NCBI GenBank assembly: GCA_031266895.1
Contig: JAISAD010000002.1
Coordinates: forward strand, 1 to 36,787
Reading direction: 5' to 3'
DNA: 36,787 nucleotides
Source: Bacteroidales bacterium
Lineage (GTDB): Bacteria > Bacteroidota > Bacteroidia > Bacteroidales > WCHB1-69
This document shows, in pieces, positions 5,620 to 36,787 of this stretch. Numbering within the stretch: position 1 is the stretch's first letter; every line of letters begins with the position of its first letter. The notes below the pieces were generated by a model. That model made no database searches, was not told the DNA's origin, and worked only from the letters and a program-made list of their open reading frames with translations. The position numbers and the translations under genes are program-made.

Positions 5620-5685
5620 TGTTATTCTGTTTACAAAAATATCACTGTGTAAAATTACGAAAAAATAGGCTCTCGTCATCGTTTA

Positions 5686-8758: not shown

Positions 8759-11057
8759 CACTCATAAAATAAGAATAATTGCTATAAGCACTATAGCCGC
8801 CTTACTGTTGGGTATAGGCGGCTATTTGTTATGGAATAAAGGCAACCTGCGTGAAACCATAAAGCGTGAGAGCGCAAAACAGTTTGATTATGAATATATT
8901 CCAAATCAAAATATAGTTTTGGATTCGCGTATGGTTACATTTCGGAAAGATAGTCTATATGCTGATTTTCGCCGACACTTTCGTCTTCACTATCAGACGT
9001 TGGCAATGGGCGTTTTTGCCGATAGCAGCCGTTTGTTACTCATCTCCGAACCTCCGCCCTATTTTGAGCTGGACTCTATTCGCACACTTTTTGTCAAATT
9101 TACCCATAGCATCGAAACACGCTATCATAGAATGGGTTATGACGGGCGTGTTACCGATATTTTGATTTCAATAGCCAACGCCACCACCGAAAATATGCAA
9201 AATATCATCAAGGCGCTTGCCAAGCAGCTCTATCTTTCCGATTATAAGGCATTTGCCATGCCTTTGCCTGTTGAAAAAAAGCGAGCTTATTTTGCCAAAG
9301 AAACCCTCGACTATCAAATCTCTCTTGATGAATTTAATCAGTGGTTTTTAAAAGATAAGGAATTATTTGTAAGTCAAAAAGATACGATAGAAACGGATAG
9401 TATTCAATCCATTTTTACTCAACGCAAGCGGGGTGTTTTTTTTAGCAAAATACCCGGTTTTATAGCGTGGGCTATCCCCAAAAAAGGTGATTTGGGCGAA
9501 TACGTGCATGACATTCGACAGTTTACACTGGATGCTGACTTGATTTTGGGCGCTTTAGCCGACTCTGCTACTCTGATCATTATCGGGAGAGAACGGGAAG
9601 CCCCGCTCTATGAGTTGCCGCCACTCAATGTGGAGTCTGTCCTGCTGCTGGCCTCTATCACCGAAAAGGAACTGTCACAAAGTCTGGATGTCAATGATTT
9701 TATGGCTGGCAAGATGCCTAACGGCCACGATTGGTGTCCTACATACTTGAGTAAAGAATTGGAAAACACAGAAATAGGGCATCTTTTAACCATTACCGAT
9801 ATTTTATTGAAAGACTGGTCGGAAAACGGCAGCATACAGGAAGCCTATTACCGCTATCCTGAACCAAATTACTATCCTTTCGACAGACCGCTGTTTCGCA
9901 AACTTGGCCTTAATGAACTGGTTTATAACTGGAATACTGATAATGCCATGTATGCTATTGATTTAGAAAATGTTACAATTTACACACCCAATCACACCGG
10001 CGCACTGCCTGTATCCTATTTCAATTCGCAGGAGCGCAGTATCTCTATCGGTCATCGTTATGAATTGCAGGCTTATCACTATTTTGCCACACTGAATAAC
10101 ACCGATTTGGCTCGCGTGGTGCAATATACCACACTCTATCAGCTTTTTACAGATAATGAAATTTACTATTCGGGTAATATACACAGTTCCCCACCCAAAA
10201 ATAAGGCTTACCTGCTCTATAAGCCTGTTTTGCGATTGTTGGGTGTATTTAAAAACATGTCAAGCAAAGAGATAACCTGTTTCGCGGATACACTGTCGCA
10301 CATTCAGTTTCGCGATTATCAGAACAAGCAGGTGGACGAGGCCATGCTGCGCAATGAGAATGACTATCATTTTACTTACAGCGCTACCGATCGCGACCGC
10401 ATTTATCAAGATATAAAAGGACACACTACCCAACAGATTGCACAGGAGTTTTACGGTATGCGGCAACTGTTGAATGGATTATCGGAAGAAAATTTGCAAC
10501 GGTTAGCCAAATATTTGTCTTACCCACGCGGCTTTCGCCTGCAAAACCGTACTGATTACACCCTCTATTTGCAAGCGCGTCAAACTAACCAGCTGCTGCG
10601 CACTATTGGCAAAAACCATCTTCCCCTTTTACATATTGATCTCAACGAAGTAAAAAATTTCTATGTCAATAATTTGGCTTCATCATCTGCCAGATATCTT
10701 AAAACACCCTCTATCATAATTACTTACAATGATATGTTGACCACTGGCGGGCACAATCTTTCTTCACGCATCAGCCGTGTAAAATCGACTGCCAACTACA
10801 AGCGCAACAATTATCATCCCACTGATTACAGCCGACCGGTAGTGGAAAACGCTCCTGCTACTCCGACACCGCTTCCGGTCAAAACGCCAGCAAACACGCC
10901 TGCGAAAGACAGCGCACCGCGTCCTACAACTGTTATCACTGCTCCTCCAAAAAGCAAGAATGCATCCACCACAGGTAAAGCAACATCGCCCCAAGCGAAC
11001 ACTCGTCCACGCAGCACCGTAATTTCGAGTGCCCCGCGCGGTACACGGGGGTTTTAA
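8745..11057 (+). CDS. Hypothetical protein with an N-terminal membrane anchor and a Pro/Thr-rich C-terminal tail
   Basis: 770 aa ORF with TM segment IIAISTIAALLLGIGGYLLW, overlapping the DUF1015 stop by 14 bp. No family recognised. Confidence 0.75.
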   Translation: MSWNSTHKIRIIAISTIAALLLGIGGYLLWNKGNLRETIKRESAKQFDYEYIPNQNIVLDSRMVTFRKDSLYADFRRHFRLHYQTLAMGVFADSSRLLLISEPPPYFELDSIRTLFVKFTHSIETRYHRMGYDGRVTDILISIANATTENMQNIIKALAKQLYLSDYKAFAMPLPVEKKRAYFAKETLDYQISLDEFNQWFLKDKELFVSQKDTIETDSIQSIFTQRKRGVFFSKIPGFIAWAIPKKGDLGEYVHDIRQFTLDADLILGALADSATLIIIGREREAPLYELPPLNVESVLLLASITEKELSQSLDVNDFMAGKMPNGHDWCPTYLSKELENTEIGHLLTITDILLKDWSENGSIQEAYYRYPEPNYYPFDRPLFRKLGLNELVYNWNTDNAMYAIDLENVTIYTPNHTGALPVSYFNSQERSISIGHRYELQAYHYFATLNNTDLARVVQYTTLYQLFTDNEIYYSGNIHSSPPKNKAYLLYKPVLRLLGVFKNMSSKEITCFADTLSHIQFRDYQNKQVDEAMLRNENDYHFTYSATDRDRIYQDIKGHTTQQIAQEFYGMRQLLNGLSEENLQRLAKYLSYPRGFRLQNRTDYTLYLQARQTNQLLRTIGKNHLPLLHIDLNEVKNFYVNNLASSSARYLKTPSIIITYNDMLTTGGHNLSSRISRVKSTANYKRNNYHPTDYSRPVVENAPATPTPLPVKTPANTPAKDSAPRPTTVITAPPKSKNASTTGKATSPQANTRPRSTVISSAPRGTRGF

Positions 11058-11130: not shown

Positions 11131-11202
11131 TACTCCCGCCGGGAATCGAACCCGAATTTAAAGTTTAGGAAACTTTTGTTCTATCCATTGAACTACAGGA
11201 GC
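11131..11202 (-). tRNA. tRNA-Arg(CCU)
   Basis: Reverse complement GCTCCTGTAGTTCAATGGATAGAACAAAAGTTTCCTAAACTTTAAATTCGGGTTCGATTCCCGGCGGGAGTA. Anticodon arm AAAGT-TT-CCT-AA-ACTTT and T-loop GGTTCGATTCC. A TAATTTTG element lies just upstream (11214-11221). Confidence 0.95.
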
Positions 11203-16715: not shown

Positions 16716-16870
16716 AAATTGTTTTTTTAGAAGTGCAAAAATAGCGATTTTCTCTTAGAAGTATCTTGAACCTCCATTTTTGAGGATAATTTGTTTTTAA
16801 GATTATGCATTCGCACTATAATAAATATGGAATAAAATATTATTTTTGCAAGGAAATAAATAAAGATGTA

Positions 16871-19800
16871 ATGAGACGTTTTTCGTTAGTAATATTCCTG
16901 ATTTCAGTATCGTTTTTTGTTAGTGCACAAAAATTTAGCGGATTTTCCGGCGATGTAGCCAAAACCGCCGACGAGGTGAAAGCCTTTATCGAAACTGCGC
17001 CAAAGGACCGTCAAAGGGAGGGCGATGAATTGGTAAAGCAATTTGAACTGCTGTGGAATAAAGGAGCTGTTGCCGCGCCCGTGCAACACGACTTTATAGA
17101 GACGGCCAACCAGTTAATAGATAAAAAATTACGACCGTTTCCTCACTTTAGGGCCTTTATGCTGGCCTACTTGGCTTTTGCTCAAAGTGAACATATTGAT
17201 ATACATGCGGACTGGAAAAGTTGCGTAAGCTATTTTATTAATAGCGAACCGGGTAAATTTTCGGATTATATGAACACCTATGCCGATTTTTTCAGGGGAA
17301 AATACCTTAATAATAAATCGAACGTAAAATGGCGTGTGGATGGTTCGCTAGACAGAATGGGCATTGATAAGGAGCCTTATTTGAGCTTTAAAAATGTAGA
17401 TTTAACAGGCGCCTCCTTGCAGGACAGTCTGACAATAATCAACACATCGGGGCGCTTCTTTCCGCTTTCCGGCAATTGGGAAGGAAAAGGCGGTGAAGTA
17501 AACTGGGCACGCGCAGGCTTGACCGACCAGGTGAAAGCTACGCTTGATAATTACAGGGTTGAGGTTAAATTTGCCTTTTTTAAGGCCGAAAATGTTACTT
17601 TCTACTATCCGAAACTGTTTGCTCGACCGCTCAAGGGCAGGCTGGAAGAGAAAGCAGGCCTGGAGGTGAGTGAAGAAAAGGCAACCTACCCGCGCTTTAA
17701 AAGTTATGAAAACACGCTGACTGTCAAGGGAATGTATGAAAATGTGGATTACATTGGCGGCTTTGAGATGCGGGGAGGATCGGTACTTGGCTCTTCCGAT
17801 AGCATTATTCCGGCCAAAGTGCTGGTGCGCAATGCAAAAGGGAAACTTGTAGTAAAAGTCGAGTCGTACAGCTTCCTCTTTCGTCCTCAAAACCTTTTAT
17901 CGCAGGATGCCCGCATCTCCGTCTATTTCGACACCGATTCGATTTACCACCCTGCGGCTAATTTCAAGTACAATTCCGATATGCGCGAGCTGATTGTATC
18001 GCGCCCCAAAGATGGCGTAGGCAGATCGCCATTCTTCGACTCCTACCACAAAATGGACATTTATGCGGAGTCTATTCAATGGAAAACCGACATGGAACGC
18101 ATTGAAATCAAGCCGCTTGTGGGAATGCAAAGTTCAAGTCCTGCCCGCTTTGAATCGCAAAACTACTTCAACTCGCAGGTAATGCGCGAAATGCAGGGAT
18201 TTAATGAAATTAACCCCCTTTATACGCTGTGGGAAGTTTTTCATCGCAACAAATTGAATCCCTTAACATTAAACCAGGTGTGCAGCCATTTTAAAAAATC
18301 GCCGGTAGATATCAGGCGCCTGCTAATTGACATGGCGGCGTTCGGATTTATTGAATATGATGTAATAAACGACAGGATAATCTATCGCCGCAAGCTGGCA
18401 CAGTATCTGAATAACGATATAGATAAAATGGACTATGACAATATTGTGCTGGAATCGAACACGCATTTTGCTACTATTGACTTGGTAACCAATAGACTGA
18501 ATATAACCGGCTGCGAATTTTTTGTATTAAGCGATGCACAGATTGTCAATGTTTACCCCACAGGCGGCAAGGTTACGGTAAAGCGGAATCGGGACATGGA
18601 TTTTTCGGGAAAAATTATTGCCGGACTGTTTGATTTTGCTTCGCATCAGTGTGAATTTAACTATGATAAATTCGAGGTAGGCATGAATGTTATTGACACC
18701 CTGATACTCTATTCGGAAGACATGAACGCCCCCGTAAACATGTATGGAGAACACAAGCTACGCCGCATTCGTAGCGTAATTGAAGAACTTTCGGGAACAC
18801 TCTACATTGACGTCCCCGGCAATAAAAGCGGGCGGGTAGATTATCCCGACTATCCCATGTTTGAGGCACGCAAGGGAGGACATGTATTCTATGATAAGCA
18901 AGAGGTGCTGGGCGGTGTTTACACGCGCGATCGCTTTCACTTTTCGTTAGACCGGTTCATAATCAAGAACCTGGATAACTTTTCTATCGATTCAATGAAA
19001 TTTTCCGGCCGGCTGATTTCGGGTGGAATTTTTGAAGATATTGAAGAGCCGTTGCAGATTCGCCCCGACTTTTCGCTGGGATTTGTCTATAAAACCAATC
19101 CTTCAGGAATAAAAATGTATGAGGGAAGGGCTACCTATCATAATGTTATTGACTTGAGCAACAGAGGCTTGCGCGGCAAGGGAACAATACAGTACCTCAC
19201 CTCTACCACCATAGCCGACGATTATATCTTTTATCTCGACTCCACTACGGGCAACCCCTCGTCTCACGTAGTAGCGCCCCAAATAGCCGGCACGGAATAC
19301 CCGCCGGCCTCGGTCGTAAACGCTCGCCTCTTCTGGCAGCCCTATCAGGAACAGATGTTTGTTTATACAAAAAACAGCCTCATGGATATTTTTGGCGAAA
19401 CCAGGCTGAGCGGCTTTTCCAGGCTCACCCCTTCGGGAATGTATGGCGGAGGCGTACTCGATTTCAAGCGGGCCGACCTTATCTCGCAGCATTTCACATT
19501 CCTGCACCATGCCCTCCTGGCCGACTCTTCGAACCTGCGCATCTTTATGACCGAGGAGAAAAAAGAACAGGTATTCAGTACCAGCAACTACCTGTCGGAC
19601 ATTAACTTCCAAACACGCAAGGGAGCCTTTACTTCGCGGGACGGCTTTTCTGAAGTGTTTTTTATTAAAAATGAGTACAAGGCGCGTGCAGACTATTTTG
19701 AATGGAGTCCGATTGACGACAACCTGCTGAGCTTCAAATGGAATGACCCCTATGCCGGTGTTGATATAAATGGACAGCCGGCCAGAGACCTTATGGATAT

Positions 19801-21358
19801 GGCAAGCAGCGGCAATGAGCTTACCGCTACCCGGCCGGAATGCAGGGGATTGACTTTCAATGCGGCGACGGCCGATTTTGACTTTGGCACAAATATTATC
19901 AAATGTACCGGAGTGCGCTACATTGATGTGGGCGATGCCGCCGTAATTCCCGATAACGGACTGATTACCATTAGAGAACATGCCGACATGGATTTGCTGA
20001 CCGGTGCCCGCATCGTAGCCGGCCGTCTTGGCAAATTCCATGAGCTGTACCGCTGCACCATAAAAATTACAGCCAAAAACAACATGCGCGGCTCGGGCAG
20101 TTACGACTATGTGGATGAAACCGATAGGGTACAGACTGTTGCCATGGACTCTATATGGTTTTATCAGCAGACAAGGGCAGTAGGGAAAATTTCGCCTGAA
20201 AGCGATTTCAAGCTCAGTCCGCATTTTGGCTTTGACGGCAGGGTAGAGCTGAATAGCCTCAACGAATTTCTCTATTTTGTGGGCGGCGTTGAAATTATGC
20301 ACGATTGCGACAACGTCAAATACGCCCGCCTGCGCATCCTGCAGCAGGTAAATCCGAAAGCTATCTACCTGGAAATCCACAATCGCAGCAAGGATGTAGC
20401 AGACCGCAAGGCAGTAGTGGCCATAGCTTCGGCCAACCGCACAGGACGCATCTATACCTGCTTCGGTGCAGCCAAAGACCAGTTTAATGATGCGGAATAT
20501 ATTTCAACATTCGGCTACATCACCTACGACCACGCCTCTAACGAATTTCGGGCAGCCTCCATGGCCAAACTGGAAGACCCCTCGCAGCCCGGCAATATTA
20601 TTCGCTTGAATAAGTATGACTGCATAGCCACCGGAACGGGAGCTATTGACATGGGAACTAAGCTGGGACGGGTGGACTTTAAGACTTCGGGCACGATTAC
20701 CAATTATATGAAAAGCGACTCGGCCGACATGCGCCTCTCGGCCTCTATTGACTTTTTCTTCTGCGAGCCGGCCATGAAAGTAATGACGGACGATATTGAA
20801 AATTCAGGCTCGATTGATTTCTTTGACCCCTCCTCAGACGACGATTACGAGCAGGCTTTATTCAACATGCTGGGCGAAAAGGCCTACGAAAAATACAAGA
20901 GCGAACTGGCAAATACCGGCCGCGTAAAGAAAATACCCGATGCGCTAAAAATAAAATTCCTCTTCTCCAACGTCAAATTCAGGTGGGACGAGGCAAACTC
21001 GGCCTTTATTTCGCAAGCGCAGCTCTATCTGGCTGTTTGCAACAGCAAAGAGGTGGACAGGGTAATGCCCGGCCGCTTGGTAATAGAAAAAAAAGGCTCG
21101 CGCAACCGTTTCTACTTCTACACCGAATTTGACAGCCACTTCTATTTCTTCCAGTTTGAAAACAACAGCATGTACGGCTTTTCGTCCAGCACCGCATTCA
21201 ACGAAGCCATTCAGGCAGTATCGCCCAGCAAGCGCGCCTTGAACTCGGCCAGGGGTCTGCCCGCCTACAGCTATAAGCTGGGTAACCGCAGCCAAAAAAA
21301 CAAATTCGTAAAGAAATACTACAGCCTTCCCAAAGCGGAAGAAGGCAGCGGAGAATAG
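16871..21358 (+). CDS. Large secreted beta-rich hypothetical protein (about 1495 aa)
   Basis: Long ORF with signal peptide MRRFSLVIFLISVSFFVSAQ at 16871. A TATTTTTG element at 16841-16848 supports this start over 16805. Confidence 0.8.
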   Translation: MRRFSLVIFLISVSFFVSAQKFSGFSGDVAKTADEVKAFIETAPKDRQREGDELVKQFELLWNKGAVAAPVQHDFIETANQLIDKKLRPFPHFRAFMLAYLAFAQSEHIDIHADWKSCVSYFINSEPGKFSDYMNTYADFFRGKYLNNKSNVKWRVDGSLDRMGIDKEPYLSFKNVDLTGASLQDSLTIINTSGRFFPLSGNWEGKGGEVNWARAGLTDQVKATLDNYRVEVKFAFFKAENVTFYYPKLFARPLKGRLEEKAGLEVSEEKATYPRFKSYENTLTVKGMYENVDYIGGFEMRGGSVLGSSDSIIPAKVLVRNAKGKLVVKVESYSFLFRPQNLLSQDARISVYFDTDSIYHPAANFKYNSDMRELIVSRPKDGVGRSPFFDSYHKMDIYAESIQWKTDMERIEIKPLVGMQSSSPARFESQNYFNSQVMREMQGFNEINPLYTLWEVFHRNKLNPLTLNQVCSHFKKSPVDIRRLLIDMAAFGFIEYDVINDRIIYRRKLAQYLNNDIDKMDYDNIVLESNTHFATIDLVTNRLNITGCEFFVLSDAQIVNVYPTGGKVTVKRNRDMDFSGKIIAGLFDFASHQCEFNYDKFEVGMNVIDTLILYSEDMNAPVNMYGEHKLRRIRSVIEELSGTLYIDVPGNKSGRVDYPDYPMFEARKGGHVFYDKQEVLGGVYTRDRFHFSLDRFIIKNLDNFSIDSMKFSGRLISGGIFEDIEEPLQIRPDFSLGFVYKTNPSGIKMYEGRATYHNVIDLSNRGLRGKGTIQYLTSTTIADDYIFYLDSTTGNPSSHVVAPQIAGTEYPPASVVNARLFWQPYQEQMFVYTKNSLMDIFGETRLSGFSRLTPSGMYGGGVLDFKRADLISQHFTFLHHALLADSSNLRIFMTEEKKEQVFSTSNYLSDINFQTRKGAFTSRDGFSEVFFIKNEYKARADYFEWSPIDDNLLSFKWNDPYAGVDINGQPARDLMDMASSGNELTATRPECRGLTFNAATADFDFGTNIIKCTGVRYIDVGDAAVIPDNGLITIREHADMDLLTGARIVAGRLGKFHELYRCTIKITAKNNMRGSGSYDYVDETDRVQTVAMDSIWFYQQTRAVGKISPESDFKLSPHFGFDGRVELNSLNEFLYFVGGVEIMHDCDNVKYARLRILQQVNPKAIYLEIHNRSKDVADRKAVVAIASANRTGRIYTCFGAAKDQFNDAEYISTFGYITYDHASNEFRAASMAKLEDPSQPGNIIRLNKYDCIATGTGAIDMGTKLGRVDFKTSGTITNYMKSDSADMRLSASIDFFFCEPAMKVMTDDIENSGSIDFFDPSSDDDYEQALFNMLGEKAYEKYKSELANTGRVKKIPDALKIKFLFSNVKFRWDEANSAFISQAQLYLAVCNSKEVDRVMPGRLVIEKKGSRNRFYFYTEFDSHFYFFQFENNSMYGFSSSTAFNEAIQAVSPSKRALNSARGLPAYSYKLGNRSQKNKFVKKYYSLPKAEEGSGE

Positions 21359-21398
21359 CGAGCAACGGCTTCGTGCCTCGCAATGACGGATAATTATC

Positions 21399-21498
21399 AA
21401 AAAAAGCAACGGGGTTACTAACTACCCCGTTGCTTCCTTTAAATACAAACCATTAAATATAAAAAAATTTAAACTGCATGAATAAACAAGAAACATGC
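21399..21498 (-). ncRNA. Putative array sRNA 1 (GCAUG-hairpin subfamily)
   Basis: -7 element 21503-21510, terminator hairpin 21406-21433 plus U-tract. Ends approximate. Confidence 0.55.
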
Positions 21499-21651
21499 GC
21501 TGCAAAAATAGCAAAAAAAAATGAATAACAGCGTAAAACAGCAAAAAAAACCTTCAACCTACTTTACAACTAACCTTCCGCAGTAAAATTGCCGCTAAAA
21601 TGCCAGCATCATTCCGCAACACGCTCCGTTGGAACAGGAAAAATGAGCATC

Positions 21652-21730
21652 AAAAAAAGCAACGGGGTAGTTTAGAAACCTCGTTGCTTCCACAAAAAAT
21701 TCAAGCTGCATGAATAATCAAGAAACATGC
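21652..21730 (-). ncRNA. Putative array sRNA 2 (GCAUG-hairpin subfamily)
   Basis: -7 element 21735-21742, hairpin 21659-21687 plus U-tract. Confidence 0.55.
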
Positions 21731-21881
21731 GCTGCAAAAATAGAAAAAAAAATGAATAACAGCACAAAACGGCAAAAAATCTTCAATCTACTTAATTAAC
21801 CTGCTGCGGTAAAATTGCCGCTAAAATACAAACATCATTCTGTAACACGCTCCGCTGGAGCAGGAAAGGTGAGCATTTTTT

Positions 21882-21941
21882 AAAAAAAAACAACGGGCTA
21901 CTTAACCCCATATGCGCCCGTTGCCTTCTTTCATTAAAAAC
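21882..21941 (-). ncRNA. Putative array sRNA 3 (short 5' segment, 17-nt terminator loop)
   Basis: -7 element 21946-21953, hairpin 21891-21923 plus U-tract. Confidence 0.5.
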
Positions 21942-22097
21942 GCTGCAAAAATAGAAAAAAAAAGTGAATAACAGCACAAAAACGGCAAAAAAAATCTTCA
22001 ATCTATTTAATTAATTAACCTGCCGCAGTAAAATTGCCGCTAAAATGCAAACATCACTCCGCAACACGCTCCGCTGGAGCGGGAAAAATTGAGCATC

Positions 22098-22193
22098 AAA
22101 AAAAAGCAACGGGCTATACAATAGCCCGTTGCCTCCTTCTAAATAAAATATAAAATTAAAAAATTAAAAATCGCATGAATGATAAAAACATGC
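22098..22193 (-). ncRNA. Putative array sRNA 4 (GCAUG-hairpin subfamily)
   Basis: -7 element 22198-22205, hairpin 22106-22132 plus U-tract. Confidence 0.55.
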
Positions 22194-22347
22194 ACTGCAA
22201 AAATAGGAAAAAAAATGAATAACAGCGCAAAACGGCAAAAAAAAACCTTCAACCTGTCTTACAACTAACTTACCGCAGTAAAAATTGCCGCTAAAATGCC
22301 AGCATCATTCCGCAACACGCTCCATTGGAACAGTAACAATGAGCATC

Positions 22348-22415
22348 AAAAAAAGCAACGGAGCTAGCTGCTCCGTTGCCCCTTTTCATGCTAATGAAAA
22401 CGTACATTTATTTCC
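22348..22415 (-). ncRNA. Putative array sRNA 5 (UUUCAU/AUGAAA subfamily)
   Basis: -7 element 22420-22427, hairpin 22355-22379 plus U-tract. Confidence 0.55.
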
Positions 22416-22567
22416 GCTGCAAAAATAGGGAAAAAAAATGAATAACAGCGCAAAACAGCAAAAAAAATCTTCAACCTGTTTCACGATTAACTTACCGCAG
22501 TAAAAATTGCCGCTAAAAAGCAAACAACCTTCTGCAACACGCTCCATTGGAACAGAAAAAAAGCATC

Positions 22568-22635
22568 AAAAAAAACAACGGGGCTAGCTGCCCCGTTGCC
22601 CCTTTTCATAAAATATGAAACAGAGCCTTATTTTC
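22568..22635 (-). ncRNA. Putative array sRNA 6 (UUUCAU/AUGAAA subfamily)
   Basis: -7 element 22640-22647, hairpin 22576-22598 plus U-tract. Confidence 0.55.
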
Positions 22636-22791
22636 GCTGCAAAAATAGCAAAAAAAATGAATAGCAGCGCAAAACGGCAAAAAAAAAAATCTTTAACCTG
22701 TTTCACAATTAACTTACCGCAGTAAAAATTGCCGCTAAAATGCCAGCATCATTCCGCAACACGCTCCATTGGAACAGTAACAATGAGCATC

Positions 22792-22873
22792 AAAAAAAGC
22801 AACGGGATACCTTATTGCCCGTCGCCTTCAATTTAACAAAAAATTTTAATGTGCATGAAGCAAAAAAACATGC
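22792..22873 (-). ncRNA. Putative array sRNA 7 (GCAUG-hairpin subfamily)
   Basis: -7 element 22878-22885, hairpin 22799-22825 plus U-tract. Confidence 0.55.
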
Positions 22874-22963
22874 GCTGCAAAAATAGAAAAAAATATTGAA
22901 TAACGGCACAAAACGGCAAAAATAAATATTCGTTACAGAAAACAATCGCCCGTGCAATTCATT

Positions 22964-23078
22964 AAAAAAAAGCAACGGGCTACTGTAAAACCCGTTGCCT
23001 CCTTCTTTTTATTTATGAGTAAACCTCTTTGCGCTTCAGAAACGCTACCAAAACCAAAAGCGCACAAAAATCAAAAGC
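22964..23078 (-). ncRNA. Putative array sRNA 8 (longest, extra UGCGCU/AGCGCA stem)
   Basis: -7 element 23083-23090, hairpin 22972-22998 plus U-tract. Confidence 0.55.
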
Positions 23079-23233
23079 GCTGCAAAAATAGCAAAAAAAA
23101 ATGAATAACAGCACAAAACGGCAAAAAAAAAACCTTCAACCTGCTTTACAACTAACCTTCCGCGGTAAAATTGCCGCTAAAATGCAAACATCACTCCGCA
23201 ACACGCTCCATTGAAACAGTAACAATGAGCATC

Positions 23234-23294
23234 AAAAAAAGCAACGAGCTATATAGCAGCCCGTTGCCCCTCTCATTATGTACAATTTATCTTC
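23234..23294 (-). ncRNA. Putative array sRNA 9
   Basis: -7 element 23299-23306, hairpin 23241-23267 plus U-tract. Confidence 0.55.
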
Positions 23295-23449
23295 GCTGCA
23301 AAAATAGAAAAAAATATTGGATAATAGCACAAAACGGTAAAAAAAAACCTTCAACCTGTCTTACAGCCAACTTTCCGCGGTAAACTTTCCGCTAAAAAGC
23401 CAGCATCCTTCCGCAACACGCTCCGCTTGAAACAGGAAAAATGAGCATC

Positions 23450-23511
23450 AAAAAAAAACAACGGGCTATATAACAGCCCGTTGCCCCTTTCGTCATGAAA
23501 GTATTTTATGT
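23450..23511 (-). ncRNA. Putative array sRNA 10
   Basis: -7 element 23516-23523, hairpin 23459-23483 plus U-tract. Confidence 0.55.
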
Positions 23512-23554
23512 ACTGCAAAAATAGAAAAAATATTGGATAACAGCACAAAACGAC

Positions 23555-23624
23555 AAAAAAAAGACAACGGGGCTAGCTGCCCCGTTGTCCCTTTTCACAA
23601 AATATGAAAACATACATTCTTTTC
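23555..23624 (-). ncRNA. Putative array sRNA 11 (UUUCAU subfamily)
   Basis: -7 element 23629-23636, hairpin 23563-23589 with a compensatory GACAAC/GTTGTC change. Confidence 0.55.
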
Positions 23625-23763
23625 GCGGCAAAAATAGTAAAAAAAAATGAATAACAGCGCAAAACGGCAAAAAAAACCTTTAACCTGTCTTACAGCCAAC
23701 TTTCCGCTAAAAAGCAAACAACCTTCTGCAACACGCTCCATTGGAACAGAAAAAAAGCATCAT

Positions 23764-23831
23764 AAAATAACAACGGGGCCAGCGGCCCCGTTGCTCCTTT
23801 TCATAGAATTATGAAACAGAATATTTTTCTC
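23764..23831 (-). ncRNA. Putative array sRNA 12 (UUUCAU/AUGAAA subfamily)
   Basis: -7 element 23836-23843, hairpin 23771-23793 with an interrupted U-tract. Confidence 0.55.
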
Positions 23832-23973
23832 GCGGCAAAAATAGCAAAAAAAAATGAATAACAGCGCAAAACGGCAAAAAAAAACTTCAATCTACTTATA
23901 TTAAATAATTTGCCGTGGTAAAATTGCCGCTAAAATGCAAACATCTCTCTGTTGAAACAGGAAAAAAAGCATC

Positions 23974-24038
23974 AAAAAAAAGCAACGGGCTATATCGCAG
24001 CCCGTTGCCTATGGAAAAGTGTAATGCACTTAAAAAGC
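23974..24038 (-). ncRNA. Putative array sRNA 13
   Basis: -7 element 24043-24050, hairpin 23982-24008 plus U-tract, and an internal AAGTG/CACTT stem. Confidence 0.55.
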
Positions 24039-24196
24039 ACTGCAAAAATAGTAAAAAAAAATGAATAACAGCACAAAACGGCAAAAAAAACTTCAATCTA
24101 CCTTATAATTAACTTTCCGCGGTAAAATTGCCGCCCTGCTGCCATACTGCACACATACACGCCCGCAGCAAGCCATCGCCGTCAATCAATTAATAA

Positions 24197-24511
24197 TCAC
24201 GCTTTCTGCCGGCCCTTCAGGACCCTCCTTGCCGTGCGAATTGGAATAGCGGGCATAAAGATGCGCCTCTGTAGCCCTCTGCTCCATGCGAAATCTGCAA
24301 GTATTAGCGGGAAACCTGCAGGAGGTAGCTCGAAAGCTGCTCTTGAAATCCCAAAAACTGCAAATATTAACAAGAAAACTGCATACGGAAATACGAGGCT
24401 GGGGAGCGCATTTTGAGACAGTGCTGCCGTGCGGCTTAAAATGCCCGAAAACGGCATCTCGAGAGCGGTATTCCGACTCGCCGATAGTGCAGTACAAACT
24501 GTTGCTGGCAT
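24197..24511 (-). CDS. Possible 104 aa hypothetical membrane protein upstream of the array
   Basis: TATTTTTGCAGC element at 24548-24555, A-rich leader TAAATCAATG, and one hydrophobic stretch (LVFPYAVFLLIFAVFGI). Could instead be non-coding. Confidence 0.3.
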   Translation of the reverse strand: MPATVCTALSASRNTALEMPFSGILSRTAALSQNALPSLVFPYAVFLLIFAVFGISRAAFELPPAGFPLILADFAWSRGLQRRIFMPAIPIRTARRVLKGRQKA

Positions 24512-24588
24512 TGATTTAGGAGTTTTGATGATTAAAATATTCGGCTGCAAAAATACAAAAATAATGGCAAAGTCAGATATTTTCGTTA

Positions 24589-25962
24589 TTACTTTACAAT
24601 CCTGTCGAGAATAGCCACAATCTGAGCGCGAATGCTCTTGGCTTTGTGGTACAGGAAATCGCCGCGCCACCAGAATCCAAAGCGGGTAAACCTCATCAGC
24701 TGCTTCTTTACCATTATTTTTCCTCTTATATATACTACCAGGCTTACAGGCACAGACCCCAGATAGCACAGCGCAATCCACCACACTCCCGTAATATGCC
24801 ACACTGTAATAAAGGTAGCAATAAACCAAATGGGGTAAGAAATCAGGCAGGAGATGCCGAAATGAAACGAGTTGTGAAGCATCGGATCTTTTATCTTTCT
24901 GGTTATTAGCGTGCTGGCATTATAGGGTATAAAGTTGGTAATGCAGCCGTAAATTAAAAGCGGAATCAGCAGCAGCGCCAGCAGAGTTCTGAAAACAACT
25001 GTTCCAAACGAAATCTTCTCGGCCAGAACCCAGTCGTAAACATGCAGCTTGTCGAGAGTAACGGAGTACTCGCGTGCCTTCAGCATCAAGGCATTAAAAT
25101 CTTCGGGATTATCGTCCCGCAACCGGTCAACCGAAGCTACAATCTTTTGTTCCGCCTTGAGGATGTTGGGATAGTACCAGGCCTTTTGCCCCTCCCTCTT
25201 CACCACATTCCTGGCATAAAGTGTTCTTAAAATATCATACTCTTCATACAGCGCCTTATCCTTAATATTAAGCATCAGCCCCTGAATTCTCTCATGCGCC
25301 CACTCTGTTAAGACCTTTCTGGCCCTGTCGGGATGCTCCCTGTACAAATCGTACAGCTCTTCAAACGAGAAAGGCTCTCCGACGGTGATAATCAGCTTGT
25401 GCTGAAACCCGAAGTAGTGGGAGTAGTGGTTGGAACAGGGCAAGATATAGACAGGCTTTTCAAAGTTCATCTCCTCGGCAGCCGAGAAGGCAATGCGGGC
25501 AAAGCCCTTTTTGAAAGAGCCCAGGTGATGGCAATCCTCATGTCCTGCCTCAGGAAAAAGGCACACCACGCCGTTGTCCGAAAGGATGCGGGCAGATTTG
25601 CTGAAAATAGCCGAGTTTTCGCGCACGCTTCCGCTACCGCTGCTCGCATCGCGTGCCCTGTAAGCAGGCATAATGCGCAGAAGGCGCAGCAGCTTGGCCA
25701 CAAAATCCTTCTTAAAAATATCGGAACGGGCTATGAAAACAGGATAGCGTCCATCCTTTCTGAAGGCAAAGAGAATGCCCAGGGCATCAGACAGCCCGTT
25801 TTGATGATTGCTTATTACCACTACAGGCTTTTTTCTGGGTATGCGCTCCCGATTCAGCACATAATATTTGCTGTAGAAGATGTATTCGTGAAAAAAATTA
25901 ATGTACGGATGCAGTACGGAGTACTTAAAGTTGGGCTTATCTACACGTTCAAAATCAATCAT
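24589..25962 (-). CDS. Glycerolipid acyltransferase (PlsC-like) with C-terminal TM helices
   Basis: NHQNGLSD (HxxxxD), FIAR, PAYR, LFPEAG and FKKGFARIA acyltransferase blocks. -7 element at 25990-25997. Confidence 0.88.
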   Translation of the reverse strand: MIDFERVDKPNFKYSVLHPYINFFHEYIFYSKYYVLNRERIPRKKPVVVISNHQNGLSDALGILFAFRKDGRYPVFIARSDIFKKDFVAKLLRLLRIMPAYRARDASSGSGSVRENSAIFSKSARILSDNGVVCLFPEAGHEDCHHLGSFKKGFARIAFSAAEEMNFEKPVYILPCSNHYSHYFGFQHKLIITVGEPFSFEELYDLYREHPDRARKVLTEWAHERIQGLMLNIKDKALYEEYDILRTLYARNVVKREGQKAWYYPNILKAEQKIVASVDRLRDDNPEDFNALMLKAREYSVTLDKLHVYDWVLAEKISFGTVVFRTLLALLLIPLLIYGCITNFIPYNASTLITRKIKDPMLHNSFHFGISCLISYPIWFIATFITVWHITGVWWIALCYLGSVPVSLVVYIRGKIMVKKQLMRFTRFGFWWRGDFLYHKAKSIRAQIVAILDRIVK

Positions 25963-28069: not shown

Positions 28070-28426
28070 ATGGGAATAGATTACAGCAGGCAAATGGGCA
28101 GGAAAATAGCTACGAAAGGAAGCAGGAAAAGTGTTATCAGAGTTATGGATATTGTGTATATGGAGAGTAGCGGCAATCTGATTACCATCTATTTGAAGGA
28201 TGGAGCAACAGATTATGATATTAAGCCGCTTCATGAGTTTGAGTCCGAGTTGTTTGATTATGGTTTTTTCAGGATACATTATCACACGCTTGTAAATGGG
28301 CGCTATGTCACGGGAACCGATGCAGGCGAAAGGGTGGTGATGTTGAAGGAAAAGAGACTGAAAATATCCAGGCGACGGCTGAAGGCATTCAATTTGTGGA
28401 TTTCGAGCAATCCGGTTACAGGGTAG
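28070..28426 (+). CDS. Stand-alone LytTR DNA-binding domain protein
   Basis: DIVYMESSGN, FFRIHYHTLVN and LKISRRR. No receiver domain. Confidence 0.85.
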   Translation: MGIDYSRQMGRKIATKGSRKSVIRVMDIVYMESSGNLITIYLKDGATDYDIKPLHEFESELFDYGFFRIHYHTLVNGRYVTGTDAGERVVMLKEKRLKISRRRLKAFNLWISSNPVTG

Positions 28427-28555: not shown

Positions 28556-29041
28556 ATGAAAAAAGTAATTAGCATTGTGATAGTGGCAATAGCATTAGTG
28601 ACAATTTCCTGCAACAAGGAAACAACGGAAAAAACAGTTAGTAATGTCCTAACCGAACAAACCCAACCAACTGTAGAAAAAGCAAAACAGTTAGTATTTG
28701 AAATATGGTGGGATGAATGGGGGAGAAAGAAAAAAAATTGTGATGGAGCGGGGCTTTGCAATTTTCATATATCCCTCAGAATAGAGGAGATTAAAGAGGA
28801 GAATCATACTATTCTTTATTATGGTGATGACAATGAAGAAGGAAGGATGTATGCGGATATTTTGATAGACAATTATTTTCAATTTGATGAGGAAGGGACA
28901 GATTTCTACATTGATGAAGATTTGTACAGCCAAGACCAGTATGGACAATTGTATATGATTCCAGCGGGGCAATACAGGTTTAATAAAGGATTGGGCAAAC
29001 TTGGGGGCTATACTATTCCCGTTATTGCTGTTAAAAAATAA
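28556..29041 (+). CDS. Hypothetical lipoprotein
   Basis: Signal II ending VTISC and a GRKKKNCDGAGLC cysteine motif. Confidence 0.8.
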   Translation: MKKVISIVIVAIALVTISCNKETTEKTVSNVLTEQTQPTVEKAKQLVFEIWWDEWGRKKKNCDGAGLCNFHISLRIEEIKEENHTILYYGDDNEEGRMYADILIDNYFQFDEEGTDFYIDEDLYSQDQYGQLYMIPAGQYRFNKGLGKLGGYTIPVIAVKK

Positions 29042-29099
29042 AATTGAACAAAGTAATTGCAGGATGGTTACTTTGTTGTGTAAATTTCTTCTTTAAGTT

Positions 29100-29669
29100 A
29101 TGAGTACGAAATCTTTTATACTGGGAGTATCTCTAATATTGGCATTAGCCTGTACAAGTTGCATAGTCATTGAGATAAAGGCGCCAACAAGATACAGCGG
29201 TTTTGACCAATTAACCTCTCCAGAGAAAAACAGGGTTATGTTTATCACGGATACCGTACCATACAGCTATGGCGCCGATTCTGTTGTGTTTGCGATAACA
29301 GCAACACAATTAAAAACCTATATGAATCAATTTGACAGTTGTTTAATCTATTTTTGGAAACCTGATTGTGCTGCGCCCAATTGCAAATCTCCTGTCGCAG
29401 TTCAGGAGTATTGCCAAAGGAATAATATCCAATTTGTTCTGATCGGTGAAAATTATATTGCAGCAAAAAGTATGCTTGTCATGAGTTCGATATTGGAATA
29501 TCCAAAATTTGTAATCAATACTTTTCACTACGACGCAGACCTCCAACGTGTCTATAAGCGCAAGTTTAAACAGGAACTGTTTGGTGATTCGGAATATGAT
29601 AAAAATCCTTATGCCATATATTGGATTTACCGAAATGCTATATTCAGGAAGTTTTTTTTCGAGAATTAA
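29100..29669 (+). CDS. Hypothetical lipoprotein with a possible degenerate thioredoxin-like fold
   Basis: Signal II ending CTSC and the segment LIYFWKPDCAAPNC. Confidence 0.7.
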   Translation: MSTKSFILGVSLILALACTSCIVIEIKAPTRYSGFDQLTSPEKNRVMFITDTVPYSYGADSVVFAITATQLKTYMNQFDSCLIYFWKPDCAAPNCKSPVAVQEYCQRNNIQFVLIGENYIAAKSMLVMSSILEYPKFVINTFHYDADLQRVYKRKFKQELFGDSEYDKNPYAIYWIYRNAIFRKFFFEN

Positions 29670-29803
29670 ATCATTTTATGTAGCTTCCTGCTATTATGTC
29701 AAGGCGCCTAACTGTAATGGCATATTCTGCTTTTATATGAATATCACTAAGTGATTTTTTGTGTATTTTTGCCAATCAATACTAATTTAAAATAATAAAT
29801 ATT

Positions 29804-30067
29804 ATGTTTGCACATTCGGAAAATCGAAGGAAACCTTTAATTCCATTCTCTAAAATTCAACAGCATAAATACCTGTTTTTCGTCCTGTATGATTTATGGA
29901 TGGGAGTGGTTACCTGGCTGTTGTATGAAACATTTTTCACTTCAAGACCTCTGTTTTCATTGCGCAGCTTATTTTATTTAGTACTATTACTCTGGGGACA
30001 CTGTTTTGTTGCTGTTTTCATCTATGAAAAGATGCGCAAGAGGCATGAAAATAAAGGAGAAATATAA
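29804..30067 (+). CDS. Small two-TM membrane protein, paralog A
   Basis: Two hydrophobic helices, aligns with the next ORF, and has a -7 element at 29764-29771. Confidence 0.7.
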   Translation: MFAHSENRRKPLIPFSKIQQHKYLFFVLYDLWMGVVTWLLYETFFTSRPLFSLRSLFYLVLLLWGHCFVAVFIYEKMRKRHENKGEI

Positions 30068-30078
30068 TCTTAAATGTT

Positions 30079-30345
30079 ATGATTACACATTCGGAAAATC
30101 GAAAGAAAAAATTAAGGTCATCACTTTTTACACTGGCGCAAATAGAGCGACATAAGTATCTCTGGTTCTTTTGCATGGATTTGGGAATGGGGCTAACGGC
30201 ATGGCTGCTCACCAATTTGGTTTTTGATCCCAGGCCGCTCATGTCGTCCCGCAGCCTTCTGCAGCTGTTTATCACGCTGTGGCTGTTTTATCCGGCTGTT
30301 TTTTTTATGTATGAACAAATGAAGGCTAAAAGTCAAATTAAGTAA
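30079..30345 (+). CDS. Small two-TM membrane protein, paralog B
   Basis: Shares HSENR, HKYL.F, DL.MG...WLL, RPL.S.RSL and AVF.YE.M with paralog A. Confidence 0.7.
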   Translation: MITHSENRKKKLRSSLFTLAQIERHKYLWFFCMDLGMGLTAWLLTNLVFDPRPLMSSRSLLQLFITLWLFYPAVFFMYEQMKAKSQIK

Positions 30346-30372
30346 CGGCCGCTTGTGAAGAATAGCATAAAT

Positions 30373-30792
30373 ATGAAAAAATATCTGCTTTTGTGGGTTA
30401 TATGGCTTTTGGGCAGCTGGATTTACGCGCAGGAAAAAGTGCATTTTAAGCTTAATCTGGCTAAAGGGCAATCTTTTACGGTTGCTCAAACCGTAAAGAC
30501 CGGCAGCAGTCAGGAAATTAATGGACAAACAAGCACAACCGATATAATTGTCAAGGAAACCCATCAGTACAGCGTGGTAAAGGTAATGGATACTGAAATG
30601 GTTTTGAATATGCAGAAAACAGATTTTGAACTCTCTATGAACAGAGGCGGGGGCATGTTCAATAGCACAGTATCGCCGCAACAGGCAGACGACCTTAATC
30701 CGCTCAGTCCCGCCACTCAAATGGCTGCCATGCTCAACCGCTCTGTTACTGTTCACCTGTCGCCCGTGTCAGCTGTTTTTGCCCGAGTATGA
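30373..30792 (+). pseudogene. Truncated secreted protein (DUF6263-like N-terminal half)
   Basis: Signal peptide MKKYLLLW...AQ, then KLNLAKGQSF...QEINGQ. The ORF ends shortly after running into thioredoxin-derived sequence. Confidence 0.55.
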
Positions 30793-36464: not shown

Positions 36465-36787
36465 ATGAAAAATAGATACAGTTTATTATGGATAAAAAGA
36501 ATCACAATTATTGCCTGTTGCTTGGTCTTCACTTTGGGCAAGGCGCAAAACACCGCGTTGCCGGTAGGCAGTTTGCCCGGCAGCATAGACGTATCGGCCA
36601 CAGGAGCGGCCACTTACAGCATTCCCATAGAAGTAGTCCCGGGTACGGCGGGCATACAGCCCCATCTGTCCATAGTCTATAACAGCCAGTCGGGCAGAGG
36701 ATTGCTGGGCATGAAATGGACACTTGGCGGACTGTCGGCCATATCAAGAGCGCCTCAGACAACCTATTACGATGGTCGTCAAATGGG
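36465..36787 (+). CDS. SpvB/TcdB N-terminal domain protein, probably RHS-repeat (partial)
   Basis: Missing from the ORF track because it runs off the window. My translation: MKNRYSLLWIKRITIIACCLVFTLGKAQNTALPVGSLPGSIDVSATGAATYSIPIEVVPGTAGIQPHLSIVYNSQSGRGLLGMKWTLGGLSAISR. Confidence 0.85.
   Translation, partial: MKNRYSLLWIKRITIIACCLVFTLGKAQNTALPVGSLPGSIDVSATGAATYSIPIEVVPGTAGIQPHLSIVYNSQSGRGLLGMKWTLGGLSAISRAPQTTYYDGRQM

What the first reader, a model, noticed from the sequence alone, without database searches (positions are those of the whole stretch)
21396..24134. Array of 13 self-contained small-RNA expression cassettes (promoter, variable RNA, terminator)
Seen: every unit carries, on the minus strand, TATTTTTG followed by CAG or CCG. 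TATTTTTG is the element preceding tex, pyrG, DUF1015 and the acyltransferase here. In the four units I counted (2, 6, 8, 10) a TTTG lies 22-23 nt upstream. Then come about 20-80 nt of unit-specific sequence, a GC-rich hairpin and a 7-9 nt T-rich tract. Established: TTTG...TAnnTTTG is the Bacteroidota sigma-A promoter, and hairpin plus U-tract is an intrinsic terminator. Inference: 13 separately transcribed RNAs of about 60-115 nt. Unlike CRISPR, each variable segment has its own promoter and terminator and needs no processing nuclease. The nearest precedent I recall is the FopS paralogous sRNA family of Bacteroides thetaiotaomicron; homology is not established.
Basis: partly seen in the sequence, partly recalled or inferred. 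Interest (0 to 1): 0.92.

Follow-up and report, generated by a model that had tools for sequence, protein, structure and literature searches.

The report
Tandem array of thirteen predicted small-RNA genes
A termite-gut Bacteroidales genome carries thirteen head-to-tail mini-genes, each with its own promoter and terminator around a short non-coding RNA, which most likely form a family of sibling regulatory RNAs, an arrangement already known from cyanobacteria but not yet shown to be expressed here.

Summary
On the minus strand of 21399-24080 lie 13 units, each with an invariant TATTTTTG -7 box followed by CAG or CCG, a 22-85 nt body, a GC-rich hairpin and a 7-9 nt T tract. The hairpin keeps pairing through compensatory changes and its stem motif occurs nowhere else in the genome.

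A roughly 100 nt spacer is conserved at 10 of 12 unit junctions. The "variable" bodies fall into two paralogous groups plus three singletons, so they are not unrelated inserts.

No conserved ORF, plus-strand promoter, tRNA, Rfam match or cas gene was found. No homologue was found in about 300 related genomes, phages or plasmids. The element sits at a single locus in a 2.0 Mb termite-gut MAG.

Best reading: a tandem array of sibling sRNA genes, each separately transcribed. This matches the architecture of cyanobacterial NsiR1 (12 tandem copies, each with its own promoter) without homology to it. Expression could not be tested because no RNA run holds the locus. Targets could not be predicted above shuffled controls.

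Verdict: a new member of a known kind, of moderate interest.

The parts
23974..24080 (-). Unit 1: promoter (-7 box 24043-24050) and predicted RNA 23974-24042
   Evidence: RNA fold z -4.6
23764..23873 (-). Unit 2: -7 box 23836-23843 (followed by CCG), predicted RNA 23764-23835, weaker T tract
   Evidence: z -4.8
23555..23666 (-). Unit 3: -7 box 23629-23636 (CCG), predicted RNA 23555-23628; no spacer A after it
   Evidence: z -7.2
23450..23553 (-). Unit 4: -7 box 23516-23523, predicted RNA 23450-23515
   Evidence: z -5.6
23234..23336 (-). Unit 5: -7 box 23299-23306, predicted RNA 23234-23298; G-U pair in terminator stem
   Evidence: z -3.9
22964..23120 (-). Unit 6: -7 box 23083-23090, longest predicted RNA 22964-23082, with an internal 17-nt tandem duplication (23043-23089); followed by a short unrelated spacer
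   Evidence: z -5.2
22792..22915 (-). Unit 7: -7 box 22878-22885, predicted RNA 22792-22877 (group I body, 5' hairpin)
   Evidence: z -2.9
22568..22677 (-). Unit 8: -7 box 22640-22647, predicted RNA 22568-22639 (group II body)
   Evidence: z -4.2
22348..22457 (-). Unit 9: -7 box 22420-22427, predicted RNA 22348-22419 (group II); stem changed on both sides (GGAG/CTCC)
   Evidence: z -4.3
22098..22235 (-). Unit 10: -7 box 22198-22205, predicted RNA 22098-22197 (group I)
   Evidence: z -6.3
21882..21983 (-). Unit 11: -7 box 21946-21953, shortest predicted RNA 21882-21945
   Evidence: z -4.1
21652..21772 (-). Unit 12: -7 box 21735-21742, predicted RNA 21652-21734 (group I)
   Evidence: z -3.9
21399..21540 (-). 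Unit 13: -7 box 21503-21510 (upstream TTTA instead of TTTG), predicted RNA 21399-21502 (group I); its hairpin lies 41 nt after the stop of the convergent 1517-aa gene
   Evidence: z -5.5
23886..23973 (-). Spacer A copy after unit 1 (with a 13-nt deletion)
23679..23763 (-). Spacer A copy after unit 2 (15-nt deletion)
23349..23449 (-). Spacer A copy after unit 4
23133..23233 (-). Spacer A copy after unit 5
22690..22791 (-). Spacer A copy after unit 7
22470..22567 (-). Spacer A copy after unit 8
22248..22347 (-). Spacer A copy after unit 9 (96% identical to the copy after unit 7 over 125 nt)
21996..22097 (-). Spacer A copy after unit 10
21785..21881 (-). Spacer A copy after unit 11
21553..21651 (-). 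Spacer A copy after unit 12
24095..24205 (-). Partial spacer A (3' half only) in front of unit 1
   Evidence: model R1 hit, 32.5 bits
24134..24563 (-). Leader: a 14th TATTTTTGCAG box (24548-24555) directly after the acyltransferase stop, then about 420 nt with no terminator. It holds an orphan 104-codon frame (24197-24511) and two stretches weakly similar to group-I bodies (24292-24319, 24355-24382)
   Evidence: (family D11)

Best explanation
The locus is a tandem array of 13 paralogous ('sibling') small-RNA genes on the minus strand. Each unit is its own transcription unit. It starts at a strong Bacteroidota sigma-A-type promoter, whose -7 box TATTTTTGCA is the genome's commonest form, preceded by a conserved T-rich, UP-like region. 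About 5 nt after the box it starts an RNA of roughly 60-115 nt. The RNA usually has a 5' hairpin with a U-rich variable loop, then an A/U-rich linker and a purine-rich tract, and it ends at a strong intrinsic terminator. The array arose by repeated unit duplication. The promoter, terminator and a roughly 100 nt upstream spacer have stayed alike, through purifying selection and/or gene conversion. The RNA bodies have diverged into at least two groups. Inferred, not shown: the RNAs act in trans by base-pairing with mRNAs, as FopS/GibS and NsiR1 do. The genome's single RRM-type RNA-binding protein may assist them. The conserved spacer is probably upstream regulatory DNA that makes all units respond to one signal.
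For: The -7 box is invariant in 13 of 13 units, while neighbouring positions vary. Mean pairwise identity is 0.89 for the promoter, 0.78 for the terminator, 0.78 for spacer A and 0.52 for the body. TATTTTTG is the commonest -7 form upstream of long ORFs in this genome (229 of 551), and CA follows the box in 292 of 551. The promoter-only blastn hits in relatives lie in front of a gene starting like ribosomal protein L21 and in front of a structured RNA with a terminator. This fits a strong promoter type. Signals are on one strand only: 14 minus and 0 plus TAnnTTTG. For the terminator hairpin, 92.3% of 143 cells are paired and 5 of 11 pairs changed on both sides. None of 500 shuffles reached the covariation score, and slid controls paired in 31-56% of cells. 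Six G-U cells would be A-C mismatches on the plus strand. The stem motif is found 13 times in the genome, all in the array. Predicted RNAs fold better than shuffles, z -2.9 to -7.2. No conserved ORF exists across units, and spacer indels are not multiples of three. There are no tRNAs. The genome has one RRM_1 protein and no Hfq was found in an 89.6%-complete MAG. Architecture precedent: NsiR1, about 60 nt, 12 tandem copies with individual promoters (PMC9045159 passages). In B. thetaiotaomicron, 76% of intergenic sRNA candidates have the sigma-ABfr promoter, and a cognate start site plus a Rho-independent terminator define 'high-confidence' sRNAs (PMC7366714 passages).
Against: There is no expression evidence of any kind. 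The bodies, the supposed functional part, are the least conserved part of the unit, the opposite of what simple purifying selection on an sRNA gives. The upstream TTTG sits 22-23 nt before the box, whereas the genome's weak TTG enrichment is at 19-21 nt. Unit 13 has TTTA and unit 2 a weak T tract. No homologue was found in any other genome, so nothing shows conservation across species. Duplex energies of the bodies against 550 promoter-defined 5' UTR/start regions were no better than those of shuffled bodies. The generic terminator scan was not enriched. The whole array rests on one MAG contig.
Confidence: 0.55

Rival explanations
1. The array is a decaying duplication. One ancestral sRNA gene, or a bare promoter-terminator cassette, was amplified by unequal crossing-over. 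Most copies are now drifting pseudo-genes without individual function, and the flanks look conserved only because gene conversion homogenises them.
For: The bodies are the fastest-diverging part, with mean identity 0.52, lengths of 22-85 nt and many indels. Units are mosaic: spacer subtype does not track body group. There is no homologue elsewhere. Some signals have decayed, namely the T tract of unit 2 and the TTTA of unit 13. Sequences weakly similar to unit bodies lie in the leader (family D11).
Against: All 13 -7 boxes are intact. All 13 hairpins are kept, with compensatory changes. That is selection on each copy, and conversion alone would not produce compensatory pairs.
Confidence: 0.15
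2. The array is a DNA-level element. The conserved spacer A plus promoter is the functional part, for example an array of binding sites for a regulator or RNA polymerase. The short transcripts are by-products.
For: Spacer A (0.78) and promoter (0.89) are better conserved than the bodies. Spacer A shows no excess RNA folding on either strand; my means of the ten z-scores per strand are about -0.2 on the minus strand and -0.8 on the plus strand. Its hairpins gain nothing over shuffles, with 291 of 500 shuffles reaching the observed values. A stand-alone LytTR DNA-binding protein is encoded 4 kb away, at 28070-28426.
Against: This does not explain why each unit keeps a covarying terminator hairpin. 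No binding motif or cognate regulator was identified. Two units (4 and 7) keep promoter and terminator without spacer A upstream.
Confidence: 0.1
3. The functional products are read-through or precursor RNAs. Conditional read-through of the terminators gives longer RNAs that include spacer A and the next unit, as PrrH arises from the tandem prrF1-prrF2 genes. Alternatively the whole array is one precursor that is later processed.
For: Three small hairpins in spacer A pair in 99.2% of 119 cells. They contain many G-U pairs that would form only in the minus-strand RNA. The 14th promoter at 24548-24555 has no terminator before unit 1. PrrH precedent: PMC4211561 passages.
Against: The hairpin changes are one-sided only and no better than shuffles. 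Spacer A has no folding excess. The terminators look strong, with 8-11 bp GC-rich stems and 7-9 U. Thirteen conserved internal promoters would be unnecessary for a single precursor.
Confidence: 0.1
4. The units are small-peptide or type I toxin-antitoxin cassettes in tandem, like Ldr/Rdl or Ibs/Sib.
For: Tandem intergenic repeats of a few hundred bp are typical of such loci (PMC2887945, abstract only). Several minus-strand frames of 34-40 codons, rich in Phe, start in a body and run through the terminator into spacer A.
Against: These frames occur in only 6 of 13 units. They use different reading frames in spacer A and read through a strong terminator. Their Phe content comes from the T tract. 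Spacer indels are 1-2 nt. There is no plus-strand promoter for an antisense partner, 0 TAnnTTTG.
Confidence: 0.03
5. The array is a CRISPR-like or other acquired-spacer array, or a dispersed REP/MITE family.
For: There is a superficial alternation of conserved and variable segments.
Against: The bodies are paralogous to each other, not unrelated. The conserved 'repeat' would be about 190 nt and would include a promoter and a terminator. No cas-like gene lies in the window. There was no match to 50,697 phage or 72,556 plasmid records. The unit occurs at one locus only in the genome.
Confidence: 0.02

Closest known systems
NsiR1 array of Nostoc/Anabaena sp. PCC 7120
   Same: [quoted passage not shown] Each repeat encodes a short sRNA (about 60 nt there, about 60-115 nt predicted here) transcribed from its own promoter, and the copies differ in sequence (PMC9045159 passages).
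   Different: No sequence relation was found, and there is no Rfam hit. The phylum and promoter type differ (DIF1/HetR-dependent there, sigma-A TAnnTTTG here). Seven NsiR1 copies are identical and five slightly divergent, whereas here no two bodies are identical and they differ in length up to fourfold. One NsiR1 copy is antisense to the neighbouring hetF 5' UTR, and no such overlap is seen here. NsiR1 is experimentally shown; this array is prediction only.
FopS / GibS sRNAs of Bacteroides thetaiotaomicron
   Same: The phylum is the same. It is a multicopy paralogous sRNA family (14 members). Some members have canonical sigma-ABfr promoters, and the RNAs end in a Rho-independent terminator hairpin. 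FopS sRNAs repress translation by pairing near start codons and are bound by an RRM protein, RbpB (PMC11697453 passages). This genome has one RRM_1 gene.
   Different: The 14 FopS paralogues were found across the genome by a homology search, and I saw no mention of a tandem arrangement ('tandem' occurs 0 times in that text). They share a conserved single-stranded 5' seed with few changes. Here the copies are tandem, the 5' parts differ most, and they mostly form a hairpin. No Rfam family reached even E 10 apart from chance-level names. Whether the FopS model is in release 15 I could not verify.
Other tandem sibling sRNAs (PrrF1/PrrF2, OmrA/OmrB, AbcR1/AbcR2, csRNAs)
   Same: Adjacent paralogous sRNA genes each have a promoter and an intrinsic terminator, with conserved ends and divergent middle parts (PMC4211561 passages).
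   Different: Those sets comprise 2 to 6 copies, not 13. None is from Bacteroidota.
CRISPR arrays with a promoter in each repeat
   Same: Each unit of an array is transcribed from its own promoter without needing a processing nuclease.
   Different: Here there are no cas genes, no short identical repeats, no acquired spacers, and each unit has its own terminator.

Membership tests
Tandem sibling-sRNA array (NsiR1-type architecture) | Head-to-tail direct repeats at one locus | tested here: met
   There are 13 units with spacing 113-252 nt, at a single locus in the genome.
Tandem sibling-sRNA array (NsiR1-type architecture) | Each repeat has its own promoter | tested here: met
   Met at the sequence level only. 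The -7 box is invariant in 13 of 13 units, lies on one strand only, and is the genome's commonest -7 form.
Tandem sibling-sRNA array (NsiR1-type architecture) | Each repeat ends in an intrinsic terminator | tested here: met
   The hairpin plus T tract is present in 13 of 13 units. Covariation is reached by 0 of 500 shuffles.
Tandem sibling-sRNA array (NsiR1-type architecture) | Discrete short transcripts are detected | not testable with these tools
NsiR1 family proper (homology) | Sequence and structure match to the described family | tested here: not met
   No Rfam family reached its gathering score in the array. At E up to 10 there were only chance-level names.
FopS | Conserved R1' seed in a single-stranded 5' stretch | not testable with these tools
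Here the 5' parts differ between units and mostly fold into a hairpin.
FopS | 12-15 paralogues found across the genome, conserved within Bacteroidaceae | tested here: not met
   All copies lie in one tandem locus. None was found in 60 relatives by blastn or in 150 family plus 150 order genomes with model R1.
FopS | Match to the deposited Rfam model | tested here: inconclusive
   There was no match, but I could not verify that release 15 contains the FopS model (one search found no accession).
CRISPR array | Short near-identical repeats separating unrelated spacers, with cas genes nearby | tested here: not met
   The conserved part is about 190 nt. The bodies are paralogous. No cas-like domain was found in the window's ORFs. 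There was no phage or plasmid match.
Type I toxin-antitoxin tandem repeats | Conserved small hydrophobic ORF plus an overlapping antisense RNA with its own promoter | tested here: not met
   No ORF is shared by the units. Indels are not in threes. There are 0 plus-strand TAnnTTTG sites.
REP / MITE dispersed repeat | Many copies scattered over the genome | tested here: not met
   Of the 14 matches in the own genome, 13 are in the array, and the 14th is a 24-nt generic promoter match on C69.

The most novel reading that the evidence does not exclude
The array is a built-in diversification device for regulatory RNAs. Gene conversion keeps promoter, terminator and upstream control region uniform, so all 13 units fire together, while the RNA bodies are driven apart by diversifying selection or transcription-associated mutation. 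The cell would then issue a co-regulated 'library' of different guide-like sRNAs from one locus. Conditional terminator read-through might add composite RNAs that include the conserved spacer.
Probability: 0.1. Interest if true: 0.7.

Novelty: new member of a known kind. Interest (0 to 1): 0.4.

Why it matters
If the units are expressed, this would be one of the largest tandem sibling-sRNA arrays described. As far as my searches reached, it would also be the first in Bacteroidota, a phylum whose RNA regulation lacks Hfq and ProQ and is only beginning to be studied. Conserved control regions around strongly diverged RNA bodies make a natural case for studying how sibling sRNAs duplicate and acquire new targets. 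The host is an uncultured termite-gut bacterium known from one MAG, which limits immediate testability.

Tried and rejected
Rfam: at gathering threshold on the whole window only a tRNA at 11131-11202 matched. At E up to 10 on 21200-24700 there were 13 chance-level hits far below their cut-offs.

Homologue searches:
- blastn of one 222-nt unit in the own genome and in 60 relatives gave only short promoter-like hits. On inspection these were ordinary promoters.
- Covariance model R1 (terminator plus spacer A) was run on 150 family genomes. It gave one 28.9-bit hit, which is an ordinary intergenic terminator with no repeat.
- R1 on 150 order genomes gave four single hits at E 0.002-0.009 per genome, which is chance level.
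- Phages and plasmids gave no match.

Pattern scans of genome contigs and metagenome contigs: my 15- and 16-nt patterns were too short. blastn of the array against all 240 loci held at that point found nothing. These scans are therefore uninformative, and their caps are spent.

Synteny: the acyltransferase loci of 10 relatives (about 41% amino-acid identity) have no array, no 1517-aa gene and no orf104 next to them.

Sequencing runs: no RNA holder was listed. One DNA run of a termite gut metagenome holds 0.92 of the sampled words and may be the source sample.

Target prediction:
- blastn-short of the bodies against the genome gave one 17-nt perfect antisense match as the best hit. It pairs U1 with C59:4434-4450, in the 5' UTR of an exported protein, at E 0.002 before correction for 13 queries. 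This is a lead only.
- RNAduplex of the 13 bodies against 550 5' UTR/start regions was no better than 3 shuffles each. An earlier version timed out.

Spacer A as structured RNA: there was no folding excess on either strand and no support over shuffles.

Coding readings: no shared ORF. orf104 has no Pfam or NCBIfam family and no homologue among 5.8 billion clusters at near length.

Invertible-promoter reading: the only inverted repeats are the terminator palindromes.

Other long-period tandem repeats in the genome all have periods divisible by three, so I presume they are protein repeats. I did not check them further.

Literature: searches found no description of such an array in Bacteroidota. 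This covers only the held open-access library, and supplements were closed. The FopS alignment and seed are in figures and supplements that I could not see.

Full report
WHAT IS THERE

Reading the minus strand of 21000-24600 with repeat finders and a motif scan confirms 13 head-to-tail units between 21399 and 24080. Each unit has an exact TATTTTTG followed by CAG (11 units) or CCG (2 units). A body of 22-85 nt follows. Then comes a hairpin whose stem reads GCAACGG..CCGTTG with a variable loop, and then 7-9 T. From the end of the box to the end of the T tract is 64-119 nt. This gives RNAs of about 60-115 nt if transcription starts a few nt after the box; that start distance is my assumption from the -7 naming of the box in PMC7366714. 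The same box precedes tex, pyrG, DUF1015 and the acyltransferase. The window is a whole contig (C26) of a 2.0 Mb, 89.6%-complete MAG with 42% G+C. The only sequencing run found to hold the stretch is a termite gut metagenome.

First, between the T tract of one unit and the promoter of the next lies a conserved stretch of about 100 nt, which I call spacer A. It is present at 10 of 12 junctions and absent after units 3 and 6. Half a copy lies in front of unit 1.

Second, the bodies are not unrelated. U7, U10, U12 and U13 share a 5' hairpin with a variable U-rich loop. U2, U3, U8, U9, U4 and U5 share another hairpin and a purine-rich tract. U1, U6 and U11 stand alone. Sixteen of 78 body pairs exceed the 95th percentile of shuffled controls, where about 4 are expected.

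Third, the degree of conservation runs opposite to simple expectation. Mean pairwise identity is 0.89 for the promoter, 0.78 for the terminator, 0.78 for spacer A and 0.52 for the body.

Fourth, a 14th copy of the box at 24548-24555 follows the acyltransferase stop directly. About 420 nt follow it with no terminator. This stretch holds an orphan 104-codon frame with no family and no homologue.

ARE THE SIGNALS REAL?

Promoter. TATTTTTG is the commonest -7 form upstream of long ORFs in this genome (229 of 551), usually followed by CA. It is invariant in all 13 units while nearby positions vary. The only blastn hits of a unit in 60 relatives were its promoter part. On inspection two of these lie in front of a gene starting like ribosomal protein L21 and in front of a structured RNA with a terminator. 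This suggests a strong promoter type with a T-rich upstream region.

The upstream TTTG is present in 12 of 13 units but lies 22-23 nt before the box. The genome's weak TTG enrichment is at 19-21 nt. According to PMC7366714 (passages) the -33 element is not always identifiable in the phylum, so I give it little weight either way.

Terminator. On an alignment of the 13 hairpins, 92.3% of 143 cells pair and 5 of 11 pairs changed on both sides. No shuffle of 500 reached the covariation score, and sliding the partner dropped pairing to 31-56%. Six G-U cells would be A-C mismatches on the other strand, so the constraint is on the minus-strand RNA. The stem motif occurs 13 times in the genome, all here. 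The predicted RNAs fold better than shuffles, with z from -2.9 to -7.2. Against this, the generic terminator scan was not enriched (12 against 8.9 +/- 2.6) and saw only 6 units, because it caps loops at 8 nt.

WHAT IT IS NOT

- It does not encode protein. No ORF is shared across units. The 34-40-codon frames in 6 units run through the terminator and use different frames in spacer A, whose indels are 1-2 nt.
- It is not a type I toxin-antitoxin array, because there is no plus-strand promoter.
- It holds no tRNAs and matches no Rfam family.
- It is not a dispersed repeat; it occupies one locus.
- It is not CRISPR-like. The bodies are paralogous, there is no cas-like gene in the window, and there is no phage or plasmid match.
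- It is not an invertible promoter, because the only inverted repeats are the terminator palindromes.

SPACER A

Three small hairpins can be drawn in spacer A that pair in 99.2% of cells and contain many G-U pairs. All changes are one-sided, however, and 291 of 500 shuffles do as well. The structure was also derived from these same sequences. Neither strand folds better than dinucleotide shuffles; my means of the ten z-scores per strand are about -0.2 for the minus strand and -0.8 for the plus strand. I therefore read spacer A as DNA, not as a structured RNA. It is most likely an upstream control region shared by the units, kept alike by selection and/or gene conversion. This is inference, and why it is better conserved than the RNA bodies remains unexplained.

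RELATIVES

None were found. The searches were blastn in 60 relatives, covariance model R1 in 150 genomes of the family and 150 of the order, and the acyltransferase loci of 10 relatives. The few weak single hits are at chance level, and the one I inspected is an ordinary terminator. The nearest genomes held are distant, at about 41% identity for the acyltransferase, and the genus has no other representative. The negative result therefore says only that the array is not found in those searched. My two collection scans used patterns that were too short and are uninformative.

HOW IT MOST LIKELY WORKS

Shown at sequence level: there are 13 one-strand cassettes, each with a selected promoter box and a selected terminator hairpin. 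Inferred: each makes its own short RNA. The RNAs are sibling regulators that pair with mRNAs through their U-rich loops and linkers. The genome's single RRM protein may assist them; no Hfq was found. All units respond to one input through the shared upstream region. I could not predict targets. The best antisense match is 17 nt, pairing U1 with a 5' UTR on C59, and is a lead only. Duplex energies against 550 5' regions equal those of shuffled bodies.

COMPARISON AND VERDICT

The architecture is that of the NsiR1 array of Nostoc, with 12 tandem copies of a roughly 60 nt sRNA, each with its own promoter and some copies divergent (PMC9045159 passages). On a smaller scale it resembles PrrF, OmrA/B and AbcR (PMC4211561 passages). 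In its own phylum the nearest functional analogue is FopS/GibS (PMC11697453 passages). FopS comprises 14 paralogues with a conserved 5' seed, so this array works like it at most and is not a member. I file the finding as a new member of a known kind. It is a neat array, real in the sequence, probably a co-regulated sibling-sRNA cluster, unusual for the number and divergence of its copies and for its phylum. It is not a new principle, and it is untested for expression. Confidence in the separately transcribed sRNA-array reading is 0.55, and interest is 0.4.

Noticed in passing
window 24134-24563 (minus): A 14th TATTTTTGCAG box lies directly after the acyltransferase stop. About 420 nt of higher-GC sequence follow it without a terminator. 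An orphan 104-codon frame (24197-24511) starts 36 nt after the box and has no Pfam or NCBIfam family and no homologue. Two stretches (24292-24319, 24355-24382) weakly resemble group-I bodies. This could be a leader RNA, a small membrane protein or decayed units.
   Followed up: partly
window 16805-21358 (+): A 1517-aa protein converges on the array. It has no Pfam or NCBIfam family. Protein-atlas look-alikes are roughly 1500-aa hypothetical proteins of Bacteroidota. It was not found beside the acyltransferase in 10 relatives.
   Followed up: partly
genome contig C59:4434-4450: A 17-nt perfect complement to the body of unit 1 lies in the 5' UTR of a gene for an exported protein, downstream of a TATTTTTG box. 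A second 18-of-19 match lies inside an ORF on C138:10950-10968. This is a possible target lead, not significant after correction for 13 queries.
   Followed up: partly
window 28070-28426 (+): A stand-alone 118-aa LytTR DNA-binding domain protein is encoded 4 kb from the array. Regulators of this type bind direct repeats upstream of promoters. No link to spacer A was tested.
   Followed up: no
window 3230-5679 (-): A restriction-modification pair: a TdeIII-type restriction endonuclease and an N6/N4 DNA methylase.
   Followed up: no
window 36465-36785 (+), cut by the contig end: The start of a protein with an SpvB-type N-terminal domain, as found in Tc-toxin or Rhs-like proteins. Only 107 residues are present.
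   Followed up: no
L009 (G028:C87, about 37950-38110, minus): In a relative, a promoter resembling the array's promoter drives a roughly 150-nt sequence with a long closing stem and a terminator. It reached no Rfam gathering score. It could be a 6S-like or other stable RNA.
   Followed up: partly
window 22917-22924 (minus): An extra TATTTTTG lies 39 nt upstream of the box of unit 7, in the short unrelated spacer after unit 6. Units 6 and 7 may be joined by a deletion or a different recombination event.
   Followed up: no
window 23043-23089: The body of unit 6 contains its own 17-nt tandem duplication of 2.7 copies, which accounts for part of its extra length.
   Followed up: no
window 8745-11057 (+) and 28556-30792 (+): A 770-aa protein and several small ORFs of 87-189 aa have no Pfam family.
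   Followed up: no
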